DNA of 49,245 nt from Candidatus Daviesbacteria bacterium. Its GTDB lineage: Bacteria > Patescibacteriota > Microgenomatia > Daviesbacterales > UBA10151. Below are positions 6,263-15,686 of the stretch, in pieces; position 1 is the first letter of the stretch, and each line of letters begins with the position of its first letter. Position numbers and translations under genes: made by a program. The notes beneath the pieces are model-generated. The model worked only from the letters and a program-made list of their open reading frames with translations. It had not been told where the DNA came from and ran no database searches. The stretch is taken from contig JAQTPP010000004.1 in assembly GCA_028712705.1 (NCBI GenBank), positions 1-49,245 of the forward strand, in the 5' to 3' direction.

Positions 6263-6362
6263 ACAGCCAAAAATGTTAGACTTTTGTGTACGAAACACAA
6301 CCTCCAAAAATCAGGAAAGATAGAATAATTTATATATTTATAACTGATTAAAAATCAATAAA

Positions 6363-7100
6363 TCATTGAAGCTTTTTAAGATCCACCCTATCTCCGCTAG
6401 CATTTATAGACAGTTTAAACAAATTATGTCTCAAATACCCATTATCTTTAAGGAGGTAAATATAATAACTAAATTCTTCTTCACCCATTGGTCCAGCTAA
6501 AATTATCCATTTAAAATCACATTTTTTTAGAAAATCTCTAATCTCATTTGGATTAAAATTGCCTACTGCGTTACAAAATATAAACAAGTAAGATCCTTCA
6601 GCGTAGCGATTGCCCTTCTTTTTACGTTTCAACGCGTCCTTGATTCCTTCTGTTACTTTCTCATCCCAGGTCTCCTCATATATGTAAACTTGTTCTATTC
6701 GGTAATAAGTTCTAGTTTTAATATTTACTACTACACCGTCATCGTATTCTTGATTAAGAATAGCTGGTGCATAAGAGGATTTGTGCAACTTACTAAAAAA
6801 TAATGATAAAATTACTAAACCTAAATGCTCACGCAAGCTTAAGTTACCATCAATTTTTTTACTATTTTTCAATTGACCAATCCTTAATTTGGGAACAAGA
6901 AAATTAGCAAAGCAATCTTCCAATGAGGCTTTTGTCATCAAATAGAATTCTTCTTTCATAGAGGTTTTAAACTTAAATTTTAGCATCATTACCCCGAAAA
7001 TTTTCGTATTCTGCAACTCCAAGAGTTTCAAATTATCAATCCGGTATTTTTTAACCCTCTTTTTTAATCTCTTCCGGAAGCTTTGCTTAAAACTGTCCAC
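6363..7100 (-). CDS. Hypothetical protein, very AT-rich. The true start may be the internal ATG near 6989.
   Basis: 245-aa ORF with a GTG start. The first ~15 codons lie in a direct repeat that recurs at 7982-8030, so the N-terminus is doubtful. No motif recognised with confidence. Confidence 0.4.
   Translation of the reverse strand: MDSFKQSFRKRLKKRVKKYRIDNLKLLELQNTKIFGVMMLKFKFKTSMKEEFYLMTKASLEDCFANFLVPKLRIGQLKNSKKIDGNLSLREHLGLVILSLFFSKLHKSSYAPAILNQEYDDGVVVNIKTRTYYRIEQVYIYEETWDEKVTEGIKDALKRKKKGNRYAEGSYLFIFCNAVGNFNPNEIRDFLKKCDFKWIILAGPMGEEEFSYYIYLLKDNGYLRHNLFKLSINASGDRVDLKKLQ
7043..7092. repeat. Left copy of a ~45-nt imperfect direct repeat bracketing the Bro-N/DinD-like gene
   Basis: GGTATTTTTTAACCCTCTTTTTTAATCTCTTCCGGAAGCTTTGCTTAAA versus GGTATTTTTATCCCTCTTTTTTAATCTCTTCCGGAATCTTTCTAAAG at 7982-8030. 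25 nt are identical (7055-7079 = 7993-8017). Confidence 0.85.
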
Positions 7101-7140
7101 CCCGTTGACTTTTGGGTATTATTTGGTTTAGAGTAAAACT

Positions 7141-7968
7141 ATGACAGGCGAAATTACTAAAATTGCAATCTTCAGGCAAAAAGAAATCCGGAAAATAATT
7201 CATAAAAATGAATGGTGGTTTTCAATCATTGATATAATTGAGGCACTCACGAGAACCGACCGTCCAAGAAAATATTGGAGCGACCTAAAGAAAAAACTTG
7301 TTAATGAAGGATATTCTGAGGTGTCCGAAAAAATCGGACAACTGAAATTAGAAGCACCAGATGGGAAAAAATATCTAACAGATTGTGCAAACACGGAAAC
7401 TATGTTTCGAATAGTCCAATCAGTCCCCTCTCCTAAAACAGAACCTCTTAAGCGTTGGCTTGCAAGAGTGGGTTTTGAACGGATACAAGAGATCGAAGAC
7501 CCAGAACTTGCCCAAAAAAGAGCCAGGGCATTATATAAAGCAAAAGGGTATCCGGATGAATGGATTGAAAGACGAATGAGGGGTATTGCCATTCGTGAAG
7601 AATTAACTAATCAGTGGCAGAAGCATGGGGTAGAAAAACCAAAGGAATACGAGATTCTTACTGCGGAAATATCCAAAGCCACATTTGGTGTTACTCCAAC
7701 GGAATATAAGAAACTAAAGAGATTAAAGAGAGAAAACCTACGAGATCACATGAATGACTTAGAATTACTATTTTCTCAACTTGGTGAAGCTGCTACAACT
7801 GAAATTACCAAGACAGAACATCCTAAGGGTTTTGATGAGAATAAACCTGTTTCCAGACGCGGTGGGAAAATTGCCGGCGATGCAAGAAGAAAACTTGAAA
7901 TTGAAACAGGACGAAAAGTTATCAGCCAATTAAATTATTTACCCGAAGAGCAAAAGAAATTAAAATAA
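7141..7968 (+). CDS. Bro-N domain / DNA-damage-inducible protein D (DinD)-like protein
   Basis: 275 aa. F....IR.....NEWWFSIIDIIEALT......KYWSDLKKKL is the Bro-N pattern. The remainder resembles DinD-family proteins. Confidence 0.7.
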   Translation: MTGEITKIAIFRQKEIRKIIHKNEWWFSIIDIIEALTRTDRPRKYWSDLKKKLVNEGYSEVSEKIGQLKLEAPDGKKYLTDCANTETMFRIVQSVPSPKTEPLKRWLARVGFERIQEIEDPELAQKRARALYKAKGYPDEWIERRMRGIAIREELTNQWQKHGVEKPKEYEILTAEISKATFGVTPTEYKKLKRLKRENLRDHMNDLELLFSQLGEAATTEITKTEHPKGFDENKPVSRRGGKIAGDARRKLEIETGRKVISQLNYLPEEQKKLK

Positions 7969-7981
7969 TGTTTCTTTGAAG

Positions 7982-8030
7982 GGTATTTTTATCCCTCTTT
8001 TTTAATCTCTTCCGGAATCTTTCTAAAGAC
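7982..8030. repeat. Right copy of the direct repeat bracketing the DinD-like gene
   Basis: See 7043-7092. Confidence 0.85.
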
Positions 8031-8046
8031 AAACTTCCCTGTCTTT

Positions 8047-8074
8047 ACGATATACGATAAACAATATACGATAT
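8047..8074. repeat. Heptamer tandem array (ACGATAT/ACGATAA/ACAATAT/ACGATAT) immediately upstream of the PfkB kinase gene
   Basis: Four consecutive 7-nt units read directly. TATACT at 8072-8077 lies 7 nt before the ATG at 8085. Confidence 0.7.
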
Positions 8075-8084
8075 ACTAACTTAG

Positions 8085-9077: not shown

Positions 9078-10323
9078 TATCAAAGATAAACATTTAGCCC
9101 CTAAAGGCAAACTGCGCATTGAATGGGCCGGATCCCAAATGAAAGTGCTGAGTATTATAAAAGAGCGTTTCGGAAAAGAAAAACCTCTCAAAGGAATAAC
9201 TTTGGGAGCTTGTCTGCATGTCACCTCAGAAACCGCCAATTTAATGATTGCTTTAAAAAATGGTGGTGCTTCCTTGGCTCTTTGTGCTTCAAACCCGCTT
9301 TCTACCCAAGATGAAGTGGCTGCATCTTTGGTAGAAGACTATAACATCCCAACTTTTGCCAAAAAAGGAGAGGATAAAGATACCTATTATAAACATCTAA
9401 ACCAGGTTTTGGACTTTCATCCGCAAATTACCATGGATGACGGAGCGGATTTGGTAACTTTGCTACATACAGAGAGAAAATCACAGCTTAAAGATATCAT
9501 CGGCTCGTCTGAGGAAACAACCACAGGGGTAATCAGACTTAGGGCCATGCTGAAAGACGGCACGCTAAATTTACCGGTGATGGCGGTAAATGACTCTAGT
9601 ACCAAACACATGTTTGATAACCGTTATGGCACGGGCCAGTCAACTATTGATGGAGTGATCCGGGCCACCAATGTGCTTTTGGCCGGCAAAAAGTTTGTGG
9701 TTTGCGGTTATGGCTGGTGCGGCAGAGGTTTGGCGCAACGGGCCCGAGGTATGGGATCGCTGGTAATAATCACAGAAGTTGATCCGCTTAAAGCCTTGGA
9801 GGCTACCATGGATGGATATGAGGTAATGCCAATGGATCAAGCCATCAAAATTGCAGACATTATTTGTACGGCCACCGGTAATAAAACAGTCCTCTCTGTG
9901 GAGCATTTTAAAGAAATGAAAGACGGTGCCATTGTGGCCAATACCGGACACTTTAACATAGAGTTTGATTATGAAGGACTGGTAAAAATTGCCAAAAACA
10001 GAAGATTGTTGCGGGATAATTTGGAAGAAATTACTTTGGAGGATGGGAAAAAGGTCTTTGTGCTCGCAGAAGGCAGACTGATCAATTTAGCCTCGGCAGA
10101 AGGCCATCCGCCTGATGTAATGGATATGTCTTTTGCCAATCAAGCCTTGGCCGCAGAATTTTTGGTACAAAACCGCGGCAAACTTAAGGCAGATGTTTAT
10201 ACTGTGCCAAAAGAGCTGGATGAGATGATTGCCAAATTAAAACTGGAATCATTAGGCATTAAAATTGACTCTTTAACAGAAGAACAAAAAAAGTACCTAG
10301 CCTCCTGGAATGAAGGAACATAA
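9067..10323 (+). CDS. ahcY: Adenosylhomocysteinase
   Basis: 418 aa. [46 protein letters not shown], and the NAD-binding GYGWCGRG. Classic SAH hydrolase. Confidence 0.93.
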
Positions 10324-10325
10324 AT
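10278..10325. repeat. 3' end of ahcY, which is duplicated at 11044-11090
   Basis: AGAAGAACAAAAAAAGTACCTAGCCTCCTGGAATGAAGGAACATAAA versus AGAAGAACAAAAAAATACCTGGCCTCCTGGACTGAAGGAATATAAA (1 indel, 3 mismatches). Confidence 0.9.
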
Positions 10326-10358
10326 TTAATATGGCTTACTGGTAGCGCTTGTTGATGC

Positions 10359-10646
10359 TCATTGGATTGTGATATTAATTTTAGTATTAAGAGCGTGGGC
10401 TACCCTGGTCAAAAGAGAAATTGAGGGCTTGGCATTCATCCCTTCTAGGCGGGAAATAACCGCTTGTCCTGTCCCTACTTTTTTGGCTAAATCTTGCTGA
10501 GAAAGTTTTTGCTTCAACCTGGCTTCAATAATTTGCCTGGCAATTTGAAACTCCGGTTCCAGCTTTTGGTATTCTCGCTGATATTCCAAATCTTTCATCC
10601 ATTCGTGATGCAGTTGTTGATGGGTATAAAATTTTTTTTGTTTCAT
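10359..10646 (-). CDS. XRE-family HTH antitoxin (HigA-like)
   Basis: 95 aa. LSQQDLAKKVGTGQAVISRLE is a Cro/C1 HTH. Lies directly downstream of the toxin gene. Confidence 0.8.
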   Translation of the reverse strand: MKQKKFYTHQQLHHEWMKDLEYQREYQKLEPEFQIARQIIEARLKQKLSQQDLAKKVGTGQAVISRLEGMNAKPSISLLTRVAHALNTKINITIQ

Positions 10647-10647
10647 A

Positions 10648-10950
10648 CTAAATTTCCTTTATGCGTTTTATGGCCAGTTCTAAATCCATCTTAGGAGTCT
10701 TTTGAGACTTTTTATGAATACCATGTACAACATAAGCTTCATGACCTTTAAGAGTCAAAAATAATCTAACATTACCTGGTCTCAACTCCCAAACAACACT
10801 TTTCAACTTCTTCAAATATTTGCTTGGCAGAAATGTGCCATATTCTTCAAATAAATAATAAGCTCTGTCTACCCGTGCTTTTTCTTCCTTAGTCAATGAC
10901 TCAATAAATTCTCTAGCTTTTGAATAGGTTATTATTGTATATCTAACCAT
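10648..10950 (-). CDS. RelE/ParE-superfamily toxin (HigB / phage Gp49-like)
   Basis: 100 aa. A..FI..L...E.A.V......L.E.G..LP..Y.K.L...VWELR....R.F is typical of Gp49/HigB-type toxins. 1-nt spacer to the antitoxin. Confidence 0.8.
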   Translation of the reverse strand: MVRYTIITYSKAREFIESLTKEEKARVDRAYYLFEEYGTFLPSKYLKKLKSVVWELRPGNVRLFLTLKGHEAYVVHGIHKKSQKTPKMDLELAIKRIKEI

Positions 10951-10956
10951 ATTTTA

Positions 10957-10979
10957 TGATAAATTTATCATATTGTCAA
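10957..10979 (-). promoter_or_regulatory. Putative promoter/operator of the HigBA-like pair
   Basis: On the minus strand, TTGACA (10979-10974) is followed by the perfect 14-nt palindrome TGATAAATTTATCA (10957-10970), just before the toxin ATG. Confidence 0.5.
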
Positions 10980-11043
10980 CTGTTAATTTTAAAGAATTAA
11001 TTTAACAATAAGCCAAATAATTCCCGAAGTCAAGATAGCAAGT

Positions 11044-11090
11044 AGAAGAACAAAAAAATACCTGGCCTCCTGGACTGAAGGAATATAAAG
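11044..11090. repeat. Non-coding duplicate of the ahcY 3' end (right boundary of the HigBA cassette)
   Basis: See 10278-10325. Confidence 0.9.
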
Positions 11091-11095
11091 AAAAA

Positions 11096-12049
11096 TTAAG
11101 CAGCTTCCGGATCTTCCGGATATATTAAACCACCACCAACTAAGTTGAAGCAGCCTATTCCAACTTCAGGAAAAGCACATCGCGCACTTGTTAAAATTTC
11201 TCTCATTGCAGGAGGTGGGTCTCCGGATAGAAGAACGCCAATTACAGACCTATCGGGCATCATAACACCAACAGCATTAACACTCTCAGCAAAAGAGGTA
11301 ACGCGTTTCATTAGTGCTCTAGTTTTTTTAGAAGAGCAATTGCATTGATAAGCCTCAGCAACAAGAGTTGCACCCCGACCAAACAACCAGGGTTTACCTG
11401 TAGCAATAGCTCTTCTTAAATCATATATAGCGCTTAAGATGCTATCGTCCGACGGGAGCTGATCTTGATTATTACTTGGCTCTAAATCATATCCAAAATC
11501 AAGAGCTACAACCTTAATTGGTGGAGGTGAACCCAATTCCTGAAAAGATAATACCTCTCTATGCTCTACTAGAGCGAGCCCTGGGAGCATGACATTACTG
11601 GGCTCAATACTACCAGCAAGGCTAGCAATTTCTGATGGTGATATGTTTTCACCCGAGGCTCGAACTGTAGCCCCAATAGCTGCTGCAATGTTAGAAGCGC
11701 TATTTCTCATACCTTTACTTCTTGAATTAGCACTCGTAACACTAATCTTAGCACTTAATCCAACTCTACCCAGATATCCTAGTGTTCTCGTAACTGCTTC
11801 TACTGTTTCAAGGCAATCTTCAGGACCAACAATAGTTGCTCCGTTGCCGTTGTTATTAGAGCTATCGTGATTGTTCTCAAAGAGGCTAACTGATACTCCA
11901 CAAAAGGAATCTACCGGGCAGGGAATTGAAACATAATAACCACCTTTTTTAAGATCCCCCATAATACCATACACCAAGTTGCCGCACCTGCCAGGAACTT
12001 CAACTACTGCTTGTCCTATTAATACTCCTCGTTCTAGCGCACTTACCAT
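11096..12049 (-). CDS. GHMP-kinase family protein, PduX/COG4542-like (L-threonine-kinase-like)
   Basis: N-terminal PGRCGNLVYG resembles the PduX C-G-E-L-x-Q-G motif. SKGMRNSASNIAAAIGA resembles the GHMP motif II KGM-SS-A-IAA. IEPSNVMLPG resembles EPTDS.LF. Visibly GC-richer than its neighbours. Confidence 0.6.
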   Translation of the reverse strand: MVSALERGVLIGQAVVEVPGRCGNLVYGIMGDLKKGGYYVSIPCPVDSFCGVSVSLFENNHDSSNNNGNGATIVGPEDCLETVEAVTRTLGYLGRVGLSAKISVTSANSRSKGMRNSASNIAAAIGATVRASGENISPSEIASLAGSIEPSNVMLPGLALVEHREVLSFQELGSPPPIKVVALDFGYDLEPSNNQDQLPSDDSILSAIYDLRRAIATGKPWLFGRGATLVAEAYQCNCSSKKTRALMKRVTSFAESVNAVGVMMPDRSVIGVLLSGDPPPAMREILTSARCAFPEVGIGCFNLVGGGLIYPEDPEAA

Positions 12050-12203: not shown

Positions 12204-13046
12204 TTAACTGCTGTTGATTTTAGGTAAATAGTAAATATCCTTTTTGTACCTAAAATCTGAGAATTGGAATTCACCTTTACCGTTAATTATAGCTTGATAA
12301 TCCCTGCAATCGCGGCAAAGTTCCTTTTTAATACAAACCCAGTTGCCCTTTTCAATAGCTTTTTTAAGCTCTAGCGCTTTTCCTTTTAACCAATCCAGTT
12401 TGGGTTCTAACGGATCCAAAACAATCTCCCTTGGTGTATCTTCCCTATCCAAATACCAAAAAGAAGCCCTGGTAACAGGTTTCCCGAAATTTGCTTCAAC
12501 CAGTATGGCATAAATGTAAAGCTGTAAGCTGTCATCTTTATCTGTAGCTCCGGTTTTAAAATCGATTATCTGCAAAGACCCGTCTGATCGCTCTCCCACA
12601 AAATCAAAGTTACCAATTAAAATCACATTATCCGTAAGCTGGTATTTCGGAAAAGCAACTTGAGGAGCGGCTTTTCCCAAAACTTTCCAGTTTTTATAAA
12701 AATTTCCTATCATTTCCAAACCACGCCTGCCAAAATTTCCTTCCTCCTCCTTTGAAGAAAATCCGCCTCTTTTACCCTGGTATTTCAGCCATAAATTCCT
12801 GAACTTTTGCTCTAATTGATCTTTGGTAACCTGACCTTGCAAGTCCAGCAGCCACTTGACGCTATCATGCACCACAGATCCTAGACTTAAGTAAGGTGAA
12901 GCGATTTGCAACCTAAAACCGGTCTTCGGATCCTTGTAGATGTTTTTTAAATAAAAGGCATTGGGGCACTTCAAAAAATCCTTTAAAGCCGTATAAGAAA
13001 CCCACAAAGCATCTTTGATAAATTTATACTCTTGTTTAGGAATCAT
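12204..13046 (-). CDS. Cas4/RecB-like PD-(D/E)xK nuclease with a 1+3 cysteine (Fe-S type) arrangement
   Basis: GNFDFVGE....LQIIDFKTG (motifs II/III), LQLYIYAIL (QxxxY), N-terminal FLKCP and C-terminal C-x6-C-x2-C (WVCIKKELCRDCRDY). The ATG at 13046 lies 2 nt after the OLD stop. The ORF track extends to a TTG at 13052. Confidence 0.75.
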   Translation of the reverse strand: MIPKQEYKFIKDALWVSYTALKDFLKCPNAFYLKNIYKDPKTGFRLQIASPYLSLGSVVHDSVKWLLDLQGQVTKDQLEQKFRNLWLKYQGKRGGFSSKEEEGNFGRRGLEMIGNFYKNWKVLGKAAPQVAFPKYQLTDNVILIGNFDFVGERSDGSLQIIDFKTGATDKDDSLQLYIYAILVEANFGKPVTRASFWYLDREDTPREIVLDPLEPKLDWLKGKALELKKAIEKGNWVCIKKELCRDCRDYQAIINGKGEFQFSDFRYKKDIYYLPKINSS

Positions 13047-13048
13047 CC

Positions 13049-14893
13049 TCAAAAAATAATATGTTTTATTATCTCTTTATTTAACTTATCAAATGACTCA
13101 GGTAGCTTCATTCCTGTTTCTGTAATTTCTTCAATATACTCAATCATCTTGATTTCAAATTTATTGATTAAATCAAGACTATTAATCTTTTTCTCTTTTG
13201 CCTTCTTCTCTAAATATTTTTTAATTTTTTTACCTCTACCTGGACCATCCATAGTTTGTCTGTATTGAAAAGTAAGCCCAAATTCATTTTTTAACTTATC
13301 AAAAATATTTTTTATATATTCAGTTGAAATAACATCCTCAATATCAGACCAAGTAGAATCAATATCGTCTAAATAGATTTTTTCACTCGCTTCTAGGTTC
13401 GGGGTATTTACACTTTTCCAATCTCCATCAAAAACACCGAGCACTTTCCTACCATCCTGCTTTATTCCCTTGGCTCGCTCATCAATTAAACTTGCTCGAC
13501 CAACTCCTCTAACTGCAACTCTACTAAAATCTATTTCTGGCACCCCAGACAAAATCACTTTTTGTTTTTCAGTACTCATTACAACTACATTATCTAATTT
13601 ACCTTCCATTAAAACATTAAATTCTCCTACAGGAATAAAATCAGTCCAGTAAAAGCCGAGGGCAGTTGTTAGAAGGTCGCTCTGTCTTATATCTGTTTGT
13701 TTAATTTCATTATTAATCCTCGAACAACTTATTTGATCCCCTTTTTCGTCTGATTCTTTTGTAATAATCCTTACATTTCTACCTAATCTATTCTTAGAAA
13801 TCATAAAGGGAGAATGAGTCGAATATATAATCTGATTATTTTTCCCAAGTGTCTCAAGAATTCTTACTAAATCCTTTTGTCCGCCTGGGAAGAGTTTATC
13901 GCCAGGCTGATCAAGTAGAATTACACTATTTGCTCTTTCGCCGATTCCTAGCCGCACAAAAAATGAAACTAGCCAATTTACACCATCGCTACTGAAAGCG
14001 GGTTCTATATTACCAGCTCTACCATGATTGAAATATACTTTTAATAAACCCTCTCTTGGAGAAATTTTTAATTTTATCTTTGGTTTAAAATTCCAGTTTT
14101 CCTTAAATATTTCGTTTACTGTTTCCGTAACATTATTGCAATATGTTTCTATTTCAGCGCTTGTACCGTTTGATAAGATTTCTCTAAAATCTCCATCTGA
14201 TGGTTTCTTCTCAAAAGATTTTAAGAGTAACTTAGATAGTGGAAGTTCTAGATTGGAGATTATCTGATCTATCGGATTATCCTCTGCTATAAAATCCTCA
14301 TCCTTTGGAGTCCAAACATTCATTACAATTGGTAATAAACCTTTTATAGTCTCATCTATCGCTGATTTAAGCGCATTATTTACCTCATCAGCAGACATTG
14401 GAGTCAATTGTAGTTTAATTTCTTCGCTAAGGTTAGCCTCGGCAATAATTCCACCAGACGGTAAAACCTCTTCCTGAATTAGAATCTCACTTCCGGTATC
14501 ATTCCTGTAATAATCCTTACCAACATACAAGGATTCGGGGCTTGGGTTTTGCAAAATCCATTCTTTATCAGTTTTCTTAATTTCAATAATATCATCGGGA
14601 AATTTAAAATCTAATTTTGGATGTTTATAAGGAATAACGAATTCAAGTTTATACAGTAATTCCGGTCCAGTACCACTCGAATTTCTCCTTTTATCTCTAT
14701 TTATATCTAAGGGGACATTGGGTGATAATAATTCTATCGCTCTTAAAATATTACTTTTGCCCGCATTATTAGGGCCTACAACAACAGTAACATCATCAAT
14801 AAAAATCTCCTCATCCTCAAATGATCTGAAATTTATCAGCTTAATTGATTTTATTTTAATATTCATCGCACATATTTTAATCCTAGAATCCAT
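13049..14893 (-). CDS. OLD-family ATP-dependent nuclease (ABC-type ATPase plus C-terminal Toprim)
   Basis: IKLINFRSF...VVVGPNNAGKSNIL (Walker A), VILLDQP (Walker B-like), YSTHSPF (H-loop), Toprim E in NVLMEGKLD and DxD in GVFDGDW. The likely true start is MNIKIKSIKL at 14866. Confidence 0.8.
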   Translation of the reverse strand: MDSRIKICAMNIKIKSIKLINFRSFEDEEIFIDDVTVVVGPNNAGKSNILRAIELLSPNVPLDINRDKRRNSSGTGPELLYKLEFVIPYKHPKLDFKFPDDIIEIKKTDKEWILQNPSPESLYVGKDYYRNDTGSEILIQEEVLPSGGIIAEANLSEEIKLQLTPMSADEVNNALKSAIDETIKGLLPIVMNVWTPKDEDFIAEDNPIDQIISNLELPLSKLLLKSFEKKPSDGDFREILSNGTSAEIETYCNNVTETVNEIFKENWNFKPKIKLKISPREGLLKVYFNHGRAGNIEPAFSSDGVNWLVSFFVRLGIGERANSVILLDQPGDKLFPGGQKDLVRILETLGKNNQIIYSTHSPFMISKNRLGRNVRIITKESDEKGDQISCSRINNEIKQTDIRQSDLLTTALGFYWTDFIPVGEFNVLMEGKLDNVVVMSTEKQKVILSGVPEIDFSRVAVRGVGRASLIDERAKGIKQDGRKVLGVFDGDWKSVNTPNLEASEKIYLDDIDSTWSDIEDVISTEYIKNIFDKLKNEFGLTFQYRQTMDGPGRGKKIKKYLEKKAKEKKINSLDLINKFEIKMIEYIEEITETGMKLPESFDKLNKEIIKHIIF

Positions 14894-15008
14894 AAAATGC
14901 TATAGTCTTAAATCTTTGTAAGGAGACCTCCACGGTGATGCTTAATATTGAGACTTCCGCAACGAAACCTTCCTTCGCTAAAACTACGAAAGACAAACAG
15001 CAGTTTTT

Positions 15009-15042
15009 TGTCAGTACATTGTCAGTACATTTATGGTATAAT
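15009..15042 (+). promoter_or_regulatory. Tandem 11-mer operator-like repeat plus extended -10 upstream of the AbrB/Doc pair
   Basis: TGTCAGTACAT appears twice, perfect and adjacent (15009-15019, 15020-15030), followed by TGGTATAAT (15034-15042) and the ATG at 15049. Confidence 0.55.
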
Positions 15043-15048
15043 AATTAC

Positions 15049-15285
15049 ATGAGAAAAGTATTTAAAAACGGCAATTCTTTGGCTGTAACTGTGCCCAAAA
15101 CTTACGCCCACCAGCTTTCTATCAGAGATGGGTCACAAATTGAGTGGAAAAAAACAAGCCAGGGTCTTGTTTTGATACATCAAAAAAAGGCTAAAATTGC
15201 AGGTGTGGATCAAAAATTTGCCAAAATGGTAGACAAGTTTGCTAATGAGCATCAAGACGTGCTCCAAGAACTTTCCCAAAGGTGA
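15049..15285 (+). CDS. AbrB/MazE/SpoVT-type antitoxin (Phd-like partner of Doc)
   Basis: MRKVFKNGNSLAVTVPK is the canonical swapped-hairpin antitoxin N-terminus. The track ORF (14935, GTG) adds an implausible repeat-derived extension. 4-nt overlap with doc. Confidence 0.8.
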   Translation: MRKVFKNGNSLAVTVPKTYAHQLSIRDGSQIEWKKTSQGLVLIHQKKAKIAGVDQKFAKMVDKFANEHQDVLQELSQR

Positions 15286-15686
15286 CTACCCGAAAGATTG
15301 ATTTCCTAATAATAAGCCAAGTCCTATTCATCCATGATCAAATGGTAAAAAGATTCGGTGGTTCTCATGGAATTCGGGATATAGGACTGATACAGTCAGC
15401 GGTAGCAAGACCGCAAGCTACTTTTGGCGGTAAATATCTTTATAGTTCCATATTTGATAAGACAGCAGCACTGCTCCAGTCTTTATTAAAAAATCACGCA
15501 TTCTTGGATGGAAACAAACGCACAGCCTTAACCTCTGCGGGTCTATTCTTATGGAAAAATGGGTATAGGTTAGTTAATAATCATAAAGAAGAGGTGGACT
15601 TTACAATAAGAGTTGATAACGGGAATTTAACCATTGAACAAATCTCTAAATGGCTAAAAGAACATTCTGGTAAAATAACCAAATGA
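15282..15686 (+). CDS. doc: Doc (death-on-curing) Fic-family toxin
   Basis: HAFLDGNKRTALTSAGLFL matches the Fic/Doc motif HxFx(D/E)GNKR. Confidence 0.9.
   Translation: MTTRKIDFLIISQVLFIHDQMVKRFGGSHGIRDIGLIQSAVARPQATFGGKYLYSSIFDKTAALLQSLLKNHAFLDGNKRTALTSAGLFLWKNGYRLVNNHKEEVDFTIRVDNGNLTIEQISKWLKEHSGKITK

What the first reader, a model, noticed from the sequence alone, without database searches (positions are those of the whole stretch)
12204..14893. OLD-family ATPase/Toprim nuclease tightly coupled to a Cas4-like Fe-S nuclease: a Gabija-like pair without a helicase
The 614-aa protein has the OLD/GajA architecture: Walker A GPNNAGKS, ILLDQP, STHSP, then Toprim E (LMEGKLD) and DxD (VFDGDW). Its TGA is followed 2 nt later (TGAGGATG) by the ATG of a 280-aa RecB/Cas4-type nuclease. 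That nuclease has IIDFKTG, QLYIYA and the 1+3 cysteine layout (FLKCP ... C-x6-C-x2-C) of Cas4/AddB iron-sulfur nucleases. The OLD partnerships I know of are a UvrD-like helicase (Gabija GajB, class 2 OLD), retron RT, and the split ATPase/Toprim of PARIS. A stand-alone Cas4-like partner is not among them. The pair sits in an island bracketed by TA modules (HigBA-like at 10.4-10.9 kb, AbrB-Doc at 15.0-15.7 kb). Hand counts on sampled 60-nt lines give roughly 25-30% GC in the OLD gene. The same kind of count gives about 43% in the nuclease and about 48% in the next gene, so the island looks mosaic and acquired.
Basis: partly seen in the sequence, partly recalled or inferred. Interest (0 to 1): 0.78.

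Follow-up and report, generated by a model that had tools for sequence, protein, structure and literature searches.

The report
Stand-alone OLD nuclease in defence hotspot
An acquired single-gene OLD-type defence nuclease has landed in a variable defence-gene slot directly in front of a conserved housekeeping Cas4-family nuclease of a Daviesbacteria (Patescibacteria) genome, so the tight pair is most likely a product of position, not a new two-gene immune system.

Summary
Both ORFs and their motifs are real. The 614-aa protein (13049-14893, minus strand) is an intact OLD-family ABC-ATPase/Toprim nuclease, closest to the class 1 Thermus OLD. The 280-aa protein (12204-13046) is a Cas4/AddB/AdnA-type PD-(D/E)XK nuclease with four invariant cysteines. 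TGA-GG-ATG joins them.

The two genes have different histories:
- **Nuclease:** a resident core gene, found in at least 165 Patescibacteria species. None of the 80 loci examined has an OLD-like gene within 5 kb.
- **Sister genome:** its nuclease is 95% identical, but it has TsaD, 38 bp, then the nuclease, with no OLD.
- **OLD gene:** rare (about 14 close relatives), low in GC (32.6% against 39.8%), and part of a roughly 1.96-kb insert that replaced the nuclease's own promoter.

In other Daviesbacteria the same slot holds PDC-S13, SoFic-like, Schlafen-like, reverse-transcriptase or AbrB-Doc genes. These also face the same way and abut the nuclease start.

One caveat remains. Two close OLD relatives also directly abut resident-type Cas4-family genes of two other families. 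The slot upstream of the one I could sample is also a defence hotspot.

Verdict: a class-1-type OLD in a defence hotspot. A functional OLD-Cas4 partnership is not excluded (about 10-15%).

The parts
13049..14893 (-). OLD-family nuclease gene. It is 614 aa from the first ATG. The likely true start is the ATG at 14866, giving 605 aa.
   Evidence: ORF. Pfam AAA_15 2.8e-21. PADLOC Old 5.9e-25. The best PDB sequence and fold hit is 6p74, the Thermus class 1 OLD. GC is 32.6% against 39.8% for the window. The gene is absent from the sister genome.
13799..14857 (-). ABC-type ATPase domain (residues 13-365). It carries Walker A GPNNAGKS (14753-14776), Walker B ILLDQP (D328) and the H-loop STHSP.
   Evidence: Pfam AAA_15/AAA_21 span residues 13-365. 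G40, K46, D328 and H360 are invariant.
13319..13636 (-). Toprim nuclease core (about residues 420-525). E430, D434, D489, D491, E504 and D520 are invariant.
   Evidence: The profile of A1 aligns LMEGKLD and FDGDW to LLVEGYGD and VHDEDV of Thermus OLD. The beta-alpha pattern appears in the AF2 model, pLDDT 83.5. There is no direct Pfam Toprim hit.
13044..13051 (-). Junction TGAGGATG: the OLD stop, two nucleotides, then the nuclease start.
   Evidence: Sequence. Homology to the sister genome starts at the nuclease start codon.
12204..13046 (-). Resident Cas4/AddB/AdnA-type PD-(D/E)XK nuclease ('family A', 280 aa). It has four invariant Cys (C27, and C238/C244/C247 at 12306-12335).
   Evidence: Pfam PDDEXK_1 3e-21. 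Invariant D148, D162, K164, Q175, Y179 and 4 Cys. Foldseek top hits are ACE1, AdnA, AddAB, Exo5 and Cas4. It is 95% identical to the Daviesbacteria orthologue and has at least 165 species hits.
13047..15008 (-). Window-specific insert of about 1.96 kb: a 115-nt leader plus the OLD ORF. It sits between the AbrB operator repeats and the nuclease start codon and replaces the native -10/leader of the nuclease.
   Evidence: blastn against the sister genome. Comparison of upstream regions in 29 loci. No flanking direct repeats were found.
15009..15029 (-). Conserved direct repeat TGTACTGACA x2 in the divergent AbrB/nuclease control region. It is probably the antitoxin operator.
   Evidence: The same motif lies upstream of the nuclease in L013, L019, L026, L033, L036 and L037. 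A promoter-like site lies at 15066-15038 on the minus strand.
15046..15686 (+). AbrB/MazE-type antitoxin (15046-15285) and Doc/Fic toxin (15282-15686). This is a recurrent occupant of the same slot, not specific to this window.
   Evidence: Pfam. AbrB-Doc lies between TsaD and the nuclease in about 10 Daviesbacteria loci.

Best explanation
The 614-aa gene is an intact, horizontally acquired, stand-alone (class-1-type) OLD nuclease. It has an ABC ATPase that senses or regulates and a Toprim domain that nicks or degrades invading DNA by two-metal catalysis.

It was inserted as a single-gene cargo into a hypervariable defence slot. In Daviesbacteria this slot lies between tsaD (or an AbrB-Doc module) and a conserved housekeeping Cas4/AddB-type Fe-S nuclease.

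The resident nuclease normally starts a few nucleotides after its own -10 box, so it is probably leaderless. Anything inserted there therefore ends up abutting its ATG. In this window the insert replaced that promoter, so the nuclease is now probably co-transcribed and translationally coupled with OLD. The coupling is a consequence of position. The two proteins probably act independently: OLD in defence, the nuclease in general DNA end processing or repair.

Shown: domain identities, synteny, the insertion, the hotspot and its cargo.
Inferred: defence activity of OLD, leaderless transcription, co-transcription, independence of function.
For: 1. Family: AAA_15 2.8e-21, PADLOC Old 5.9e-25, and a profile match to the class 1 Thermus OLD 6p74 at 2.3e-22 that includes the Toprim E and DxD motifs. 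Foldseek's top hit is 6p74 at 1.3e-19. Catalytic residues are invariant.
2. Asymmetry: the nuclease has more than 500 homologues at 60-95% identity, all from the Daviesbacteria/Microgenomates group, while OLD has only about 13 at 42-57%.
3. Synteny: the sister genome reads ValS-117aa-94aa-TsaD-38 bp-nuclease-GHMP-AdoHcyase. Window 13046-15682 is absent there.
4. Co-occurrence: 0 of 80 species loci carrying the nuclease orthologue have an OLD-like gene within 5 kb, by tblastn and by HMM.
5. Hotspot: in other Daviesbacteria the same slot holds PDC-S13 (Bro-N) in two loci, SoFic/PDC-S04, a Schlafen-like protein, an RT, LuxR and AbrB-Doc. All face the same way and lie within 0-60 bp of, or overlap, the nuclease start.
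6. Second family: the slot upstream of a second conserved Cas4-type family (B) holds type I RM plus SMODS-SLATT, a C5-MTase plus NOV_C plus DUF3644, RT plus HsdR, or OLD.
7. Housekeeping context: families A and B sit in tandem between RarA/LOG and FtsZ in Paceibacterota.
8. Foreign composition: OLD has GC3 of 24% against about 40% in its neighbours. OLD has lower GC than its flanks in 9 of 10 loci.
9. Clade contexts vary: type I RM, prophage-like regions with a terminase, a serine recombinase, and unknown genes.
Against: Of the 10 loci of this rare OLD clade whose downstream side is known, three have the OLD stop within 8 nt of, or overlapping, the start of a Cas4-family gene. These are the window plus L091 and L171. 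The three nucleases belong to three different families. L091 and L171 carry OLD genes that are 88% identical yet have different nucleases.

L004 has a family A orthologue 4 kb away.

If insertion were random across a genome of roughly 800 genes (my assumed size for these bacteria), this would be very unlikely. The hotspot explanation needs a large share of defence cargo in these small genomes to sit at such slots. I showed that for family A (34 loci). For family B I have only a handful of loci, and for family C none.

No activity or expression data exist.
Confidence: 0.7

Rival explanations
1. The pair is a real two-gene defence system. OLD (sensor/ATPase plus Toprim) works with a Cas4-family exonuclease that takes the place of the GajB helicase. 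The partner is recruited from whichever resident Cas4-type gene is available.
For: The pair has a translationally coupled junction. Three of 10 informative OLD-clade loci directly abut Cas4-family genes of three families. The nuclease's best fold match is ACE1, a Cas4-family enzyme known to cooperate with an immune effector (pAgo) (PMC12094033, abstract seen).
Against: The partner genes are resident core genes present in hundreds to thousands of genomes without OLD. The sister genome lacks OLD. Seven of 10 clade loci lack an adjacent nuclease. The same junction geometry is seen with unrelated cargo. OLD has its own complete nuclease domain. PDDEXK_1 is found in only 2 of 35 downstream neighbours in a broad OLD sample.
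Confidence: 0.12
2. Guard model. The OLD protein monitors the resident end-processing nuclease, as P2 Old fires when RecBCD is inhibited. Linkage to the guarded gene is selected for.
For: In the published model, P2 Old is activated by loss or inhibition of RecBCD (PMC12392090; PMC10568477). The resident nuclease has the AddB/AdnA nuclease-domain fold. OLD recurs next to such genes.
Against: Guards do not need to be linked to what they guard. Vc OLD acts independently of RecBCD. The same slots hold many defence genes with no such logic. There is no direct evidence of any kind.
Confidence: 0.06
3. Operon hitch-hiking (compatible with the best explanation). By replacing the native promoter of a needed housekeeping gene and coupling to its start codon, the OLD insert becomes hard to delete. 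This stabilises a selfish defence gene.
For: The native -10/leader seen in relatives is missing from the window and is replaced by the insert. No terminator lies between the two genes. A promoter-like site lies upstream of OLD in ancestral sequence.
Against: A -10-like TATTAT lies 8 nt upstream of the nuclease ATG, inside the OLD 3' end, so the nuclease may keep its own start. The nuclease's essentiality is unknown. Promoter-like hits are at chance level (12 found against 11.4 expected).
Confidence: 0.1

Closest known systems
Class 1 OLD nucleases (P2 Old, Thermus scotoductus OLD 6p74, Vibrio cholerae Vc OLD)
   Same: A single polypeptide with an N-terminal ABC ATPase carrying an inserted domain and a C-terminal Toprim with E and DxD. 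There is no helicase, RT or split partner. The gene is acquired, sometimes prophage-borne and rare. 6p74 is the best sequence-profile and fold match.
   Different: It is only about 17% identical to 6p74, and the Pfam Toprim models do not detect it. It forms a small separate clade of about 14 sequences, with a low-GC branch (several loci carry Patescibacteria-type nuclease genes) and a high-GC branch. Three members abut Cas4-family genes.
Gabija (GajA class 2 OLD + GajB UvrD-like helicase)
   Same: An OLD-type ATPase-Toprim protein followed by a tightly linked DNA-processing gene. GajA is a PADLOC and fold hit.
   Different: No UvrD/SF1 helicase lies nearby. The partner is a resident core nuclease, not a co-inherited gene. 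GajA scores below Old and AriA in PADLOC.
PARIS (AriA ABC ATPase + AriB Toprim; class 4)
   Same: The ATPase is similar to AriA (PADLOC 9.6e-23).
   Different: Here the ATPase and Toprim are fused in one protein. There is no separate AriB.
ACE1, the Argonaute-associated Cas4-family enzyme (9iab/9iac)
   Same: It is the best fold and PDB sequence match for the 280-aa nuclease. It is a precedent for a Cas4-family nuclease sitting next to, and helping, an immune effector.
   Different: Identity is 16-18%. No pAgo lies nearby. The window's nuclease is a lineage-wide core gene, found next to RarA and FtsZ in other classes.
AddB/AdnA nuclease domains and CRISPR Cas4
   Same: A PD-(D/E)XK core (D...D/ExK, QxxxY) with a 1+3 cysteine Fe-S layout.
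   Different: It is a stand-alone 280-aa protein with no helicase domain. TIGR00372 cas4 scores 25.5 against a cut-off of 65. The window has no CRISPR-like tandem array and the adjacent genes carry no Cas domains.
Defence islands and integration hotspots flanked by core genes
   Same: Alternative defence cargo (TA, RM, RT, SMODS-SLATT, PDC candidates, OLD) occupies one site bounded by conserved genes.
   Different: The anchor here is a conserved Cas4-family nuclease gene, with cargo abutting its start codon. I found no description of this for Patescibacteria in the held literature.

Membership tests
OLD family nucleases | N-terminal ABC-type ATPase with Walker A, Walker B and H-loop | tested here: met
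   AAA_15 2.8e-21 and AAA_21 1.9e-14 over residues 13-365. GPNNAGKS, D328 and H360 are invariant.
OLD family nucleases | C-terminal Toprim domain with a catalytic Glu and a DxD | tested here: met
   The profile alignment to 6p74 covers E430 and D489xD491. These residues are invariant in 20 sequences, six of which carry PF20469. The fold match to the full-length OLD has E 1.3e-19. Caveat: no direct Pfam Toprim hit.
Class 1 OLD (stand-alone) | No conserved partner gene in the neighbourhood | tested here: inconclusive
   Neighbours differ in 10 informative clade loci, and 7 have no nuclease next door. However, 3 abut Cas4-family genes of three different families.
Class 2 OLD / Gabija | Adjacent UvrD/PcrA-like helicase (GajB) | tested here: not met
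   The neighbouring genes are a PDDEXK_1 nuclease, a GHMP kinase, AbrB, Doc and TsaD. No helicase domain was found.
Class 3 OLD / retron | Adjacent reverse transcriptase and ncRNA | tested here: not met
   No RVT_1 domain in the flanking ORFs. The ncRNA was not searched for.
Class 4 / PARIS | ATPase (AriA) and Toprim (AriB) as separate proteins | tested here: not met
   A single 614-aa ORF carries both domains.
Cas4 / AddB-type Fe-S PD-(D/E)XK nucleases (superfamily) | D...D/ExK catalytic core, QxxxY, and four Cys in a 1+3 layout | tested here: met
   PDDEXK_1 3e-21. D148, D162, K164, Q175, Y179, C27, C238, C244 and C247 are invariant. Fold hits are ACE1, AdnA, AddAB and Cas4. Fe-S binding itself cannot be tested here.
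CRISPR-associated Cas4 proper | Passes the cas4 equivalog model and is linked to cas1/cas2 or an array | tested here: not met
   TIGR00372 scores 25.5 bits against a cut-off of 65. No CRISPR-like array is in the window. The context is housekeeping.

The most novel reading that the evidence does not exclude
In Patescibacteria, conserved Cas4/AddB-type housekeeping nucleases are more than passive landmarks. They are functional hubs for the defence genes that pile up directly in front of them.

This OLD clade in particular may depend on, or guard, whichever resident Cas4-type nuclease it is coupled to. That would be the counterpart, in bacteria that lack RecBCD/AddAB, of the P2 Old-RecBCD relationship or of ACE1-pAgo cooperation.
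Probability: 0.12. Interest if true: 0.7.

Novelty: new member of a known kind. Interest (0 to 1): 0.36.

Why it matters
As first framed, a helicase-less Gabija relative, this would have been a new defence architecture. The evidence points instead to an ordinary class-1-type OLD gene sitting in a defence hotspot.

Three things are still useful:
- It adds a divergent OLD clade that Pfam's Toprim models miss.
- It shows that in streamlined Patescibacteria genomes, defence cargo (TA, RM, RT, SMODS-SLATT, PDC-S13, SoFic-like, OLD) collects directly upstream of conserved Cas4-family nuclease genes. That gives a practical landmark for mining defence genes in these uncultured bacteria.
- It leaves a testable question: is the repeated OLD/Cas4-type adjacency only positional?

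Tried and rejected
- **Pfam Toprim on the C-terminal 247 aa, at E<=10:** no hit. The assignment was made by profile and fold instead.
- **Repeats flanking the OLD insert:** no direct repeats. One weak 21-nt inverted pair (12206-12226 / 14985-15005, 76% complementary) looks like chance.
- **tRNA genes or CRISPR arrays as integration landmarks:** none in the window.
- **Mosaic recombination tract inside the nuclease gene:** identity to the sister genome is uniform, 90-98% per 100 nt.
- **Phage origin:**
  - INPHARED (the 'phages' collection) has only one weak partial hit to OLD.
  - IMG/VR (viral contigs) has no close OLD relative and almost no family A or B nucleases.
- **A co-inherited ancestral OLD+Cas4 cassette:** rejected. 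The partners of L091 and of the window are orthologues of resident genes that occur without OLD.
- **L003's 354-aa downstream gene as a hidden PD-(D/E)XK nuclease:** no support from Pfam, PADLOC or hhalign.
- **Literature search for an OLD plus Cas4 or PDDEXK system:** nothing found.
- **Promoter and terminator scans:** at chance level.
Full report
**Observation.** The two minus-strand ORFs exist as described: 13049..14893 (614 aa) and 12204..13046 (280 aa from the ATG). On the coding strand the junction reads TGA-GG-ATG (13051-13044). All quoted motifs are present. Small corrections follow.
- The cysteine cluster is C-x5-C-x2-C.
- The OLD protein probably starts at Met10 (ATG at 14866, 605 aa), as in the database entry and the homologues.
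- GC is 32.6% (GC3 24%) for OLD, 38.2% for the nuclease and 43.0% for the next gene, against 39.8% for the window.
- The HigB(Gp49)/HTH and AbrB/Doc modules are confirmed.

**What the two proteins are.**

*The 614-aa protein.*
- It matches AAA_15 (2.8e-21) and AAA_21 over residues 13-365.
- In PADLOC it scores best on Old (5.9e-25), then AriA and GajA.
- Pfam finds no Toprim model even at E<=10.
- A 20-sequence alignment includes six relatives that carry PF20469. In it, E430, G431, D434, D489, D491, E504 and D520 are invariant.
- The profile of that alignment matches the class 1 Thermus scotoductus OLD (6p74) at 2.3e-22. It aligns LMEGKLD to LLVEGYGD and FDGDW to VHDEDV.
- An AF2 model (pLDDT 83.5) has 6p74 as its top Foldseek hit (1.3e-19), ahead of retron/Septu PtuA and GajA.
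- It is therefore an intact OLD-family ATPase-Toprim nuclease, nearest to class 1.

*The 280-aa protein.*
- It matches PDDEXK_1 (3e-21), with D148, D162, K164, Q175, Y179 and four Cys invariant.
- Its model (pLDDT 82) matches ACE1 (the pAgo-associated Cas4-family enzyme), the AdnA and AddAB nuclease domains, Exo5 and Cas4.
- It fails the cas4 equivalog cut-off (25.5 against 65 bits), and the window has no CRISPR-like tandem array.

**The two genes have different histories.**
- The nuclease has more than 500 homologues at 60-95% identity, named Daviesbacteria or Microgenomates where a name exists.
- OLD has about 13 close relatives at 42-57% identity.
- In the closest genome (Daviesbacteria JAQUSJ01, nuclease 95% identical) the order is ValS-117aa-94aa-TsaD-38 bp-nuclease-GHMP-...-AdoHcyase-PfkB.
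- blastn shows the window is collinear with that genome, except that 13046-15682 is missing there. Homology resumes exactly at the nuclease start codon.
- A scan of one genome per species found 165 relatives of the nuclease across Patescibacteria. In the 80 loci kept, no OLD-like gene lies within 5 kb, by tblastn or by an HMM of the OLD alignment.
- About ten Daviesbacteria loci carry AbrB-Doc between TsaD and the nuclease, so that TA module recurs at this site. Only the OLD gene is specific to the window.
- Upstream sequences were compared across 29 loci. The ancestral AbrB control region, with the repeat TGTACTGACA x2, is kept at 15009-15029. New sequence runs from about 15008 to 13047. The -10-like TAGAAT/TATAAT that normally lies 6-9 nt before the nuclease ATG, which suggests a leaderless mRNA, has been replaced.

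**The site is a defence hotspot.** In other Daviesbacteria the gene immediately upstream of the nuclease faces the same way and lies 0-60 bp from, or overlaps, its start. That gene is unrelated from genome to genome:
- Bro-N proteins that match PADLOC PDC-S13 at 1e-118 to 1e-123 (L016, L029);
- a Fic protein matching PDC-S04/SoFic (L027);
- a Schlafen/AlbA_2 protein (L023);
- a reverse transcriptase (L024);
- LuxR (L041);
- several genes of unknown function.

The tight junction is therefore a property of the slot, not of OLD.

**The complication.**
- Two of the closest OLD relatives are also followed by Cas4-like PDDEXK_1 genes with overlapping stop and start. These are L091 (59-61% identical to the window's OLD) and L171/P0005 (56%).
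- These nucleases are not orthologues of the window's. hhalign of the family A alignment against L091_251 gives 48% probability, and against L171_223 gives nothing. The two are only 21% identical to each other.
- L091's nuclease ('family B') belongs to a very large, highly conserved Patescibacteria family: at least 8000 hits, with the top 120 at 78-86% identity, on contigs up to 669 kb.
- Its orthologues without OLD align to L091 starting exactly at the ATG.
- L091 and L171 carry OLD genes that are 88% identical (83% at the DNA level, ending about 10 nt before the stop), yet they have different downstream nucleases.
- So the OLD ORF has landed in front of resident-type Cas4-family genes at least twice, and probably three times.
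- L004 has a family A orthologue 4 kb from its OLD.
- Counting all loci whose downstream side is known, 3 of 10 abut a Cas4-type gene. The rest sit in type I RM, prophage-like or unknown contexts.
- In a broad sample of 35 same-strand downstream neighbours of more distant OLD genes, PDDEXK_1 appears twice (one of the two is L091) and UvrD once.

**Does the hotspot idea cover this?**
- For family B, the few loci available show the same picture as family A. Directly upstream and abutting are type I RM plus a SMODS/AGS_C cyclase plus a SLATT_4 effector (L190), a C5-methylase plus NOV_C plus DUF3644 (L189), RT plus HsdR (L185-187), or OLD (L091).
- In Paceibacterota and Nealsonbacteria, families A and B are tandem genes. 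In the Paceibacterota locus (L045), the only one annotated, they lie between RarA/MgsA-LOG and FtsZ, a core housekeeping setting.
- The OLD gene has lower GC than its flanks in 9 of 10 loci.
- The simplest reading is that conserved Cas4-family nuclease genes anchor defence slots in these small genomes, and OLD is one of many cargos.
The recurrent adjacency therefore remains partly unexplained.

**Mechanism proposed.**
- OLD acts as a stand-alone, class-1-type defence nuclease: ATP-dependent control by the ABC ATPase dimer and two-metal cleavage by the Toprim domain. This is inferred from family knowledge (PMC10568477; PMC12392090).
- The resident nuclease is a general DNA end-processing enzyme. 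This is inferred from its fold and its core-genome context.
- Because the insert replaced the nuclease's own promoter, the two genes are probably co-transcribed from the ancestral divergent promoter region near 15038-15066 and translationally coupled. This is an inference, and promoter-like hits are at chance level.

**Rivals.**
- A true OLD-Cas4 two-gene system.
- A guard relationship, like that of P2 Old and RecBCD.
- Operon hitch-hiking.

**Known or new.** OLD classes 1-4 are defined by gene context.
- This gene lacks the helicase (class 2), the RT (class 3) and the split layout (class 4).
- I found no literature on OLD plus Cas4 pairs.
- I file it as a new, divergent member of the stand-alone OLD kind, in a defence hotspot.
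- The most novel reading not excluded is that Cas4-type nucleases are functional hubs or partners for OLD in Patescibacteria. I give that about 0.12.

Noticed in passing
window 10278-11089: The Gp49/HigB-like plus HTH cassette (10359-10950) is flanked by an imperfect 47-nt direct repeat (10278-10324, the 3' end of the AdoHcyase gene, and 11044-11089). The cassette is absent from the sister genome. This looks like a site-specific insertion with an att-like duplication.
   Followed up: partly
window 11096-12049: The GHMP-kinase-like gene is only 38% (aa) and 64% (nt) identical to the sister genome's, while its flanks are 84-95% identical. Its GC3 is 27% although its overall GC is 43%. This suggests replacement by a divergent allele.
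   Followed up: no
window 15009-15029; L013, L019, L026, L033, L036, L037 upstream of the nuclease: A conserved direct repeat TGTACTGACA x2 lies between AbrB and the nuclease and is probably the antitoxin operator. In relatives the nuclease ATG lies 6-9 nt after a TAGAAT/TATAAT box, which suggests a leaderless mRNA.
   Followed up: partly
L045 4959-6734; L047 2612-4376: Cas4-type families A and B are adjacent, co-directional genes in Paceibacterota and Nealsonbacteria. In L045, the locus I annotated, they sit between RarA/MgsA-LOG and FtsZ. This may be a conserved two-nuclease module of Patescibacteria.
   Followed up: partly
L190 243-5996; L189 2515-5997; L185 1-5977: Defence islands directly abut the family B nuclease gene. 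They are type I RM plus SMODS/AGS_C plus SLATT_4 (L190), C5-MTase plus NOV_C plus DUF3644 (L189), and RT plus HsdR (L185).
   Followed up: partly
L003 9814-10125; L004 7936-8211; L171 6238-6519; L109 1443-1691: Small FtsK_gamma winged-helix ORFs (37-56% identical to each other) recur within about 2 kb downstream of OLD-clade genes. A further copy lies about 3.3 kb upstream of a more distant OLD gene in L109. One family B nuclease (P0359) is fused to an FtsK_gamma domain. A 354-aa protein family also recurs (L003, L004, L185).
   Followed up: partly
L024 3211-4233; L023 3489-4952: A 340-aa reverse transcriptase (PADLOC RT/DRT-like, 5.9e-54) and a Schlafen-AlbA_2 plus HATPase_c_4 protein occupy the same slot upstream of the nuclease in two other Daviesbacteria.
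   Followed up: no
window 6263-8081: A 1.8-kb stretch between the VanW-like gene and PfkB, with ORFs 6363-7100 (-) and 7141-7968 (+), has no counterpart in the sister genome. It is another indel between the two genomes.
   Followed up: no
L011-L090 record titles: Many of the genome records that carry this Patescibacteria-type locus are titled 'uncultured Gammaproteobacteria bacterium' (TPA assemblies). Gene content and synteny match Daviesbacteria, so the taxonomic labels are probably wrong.
   Followed up: no
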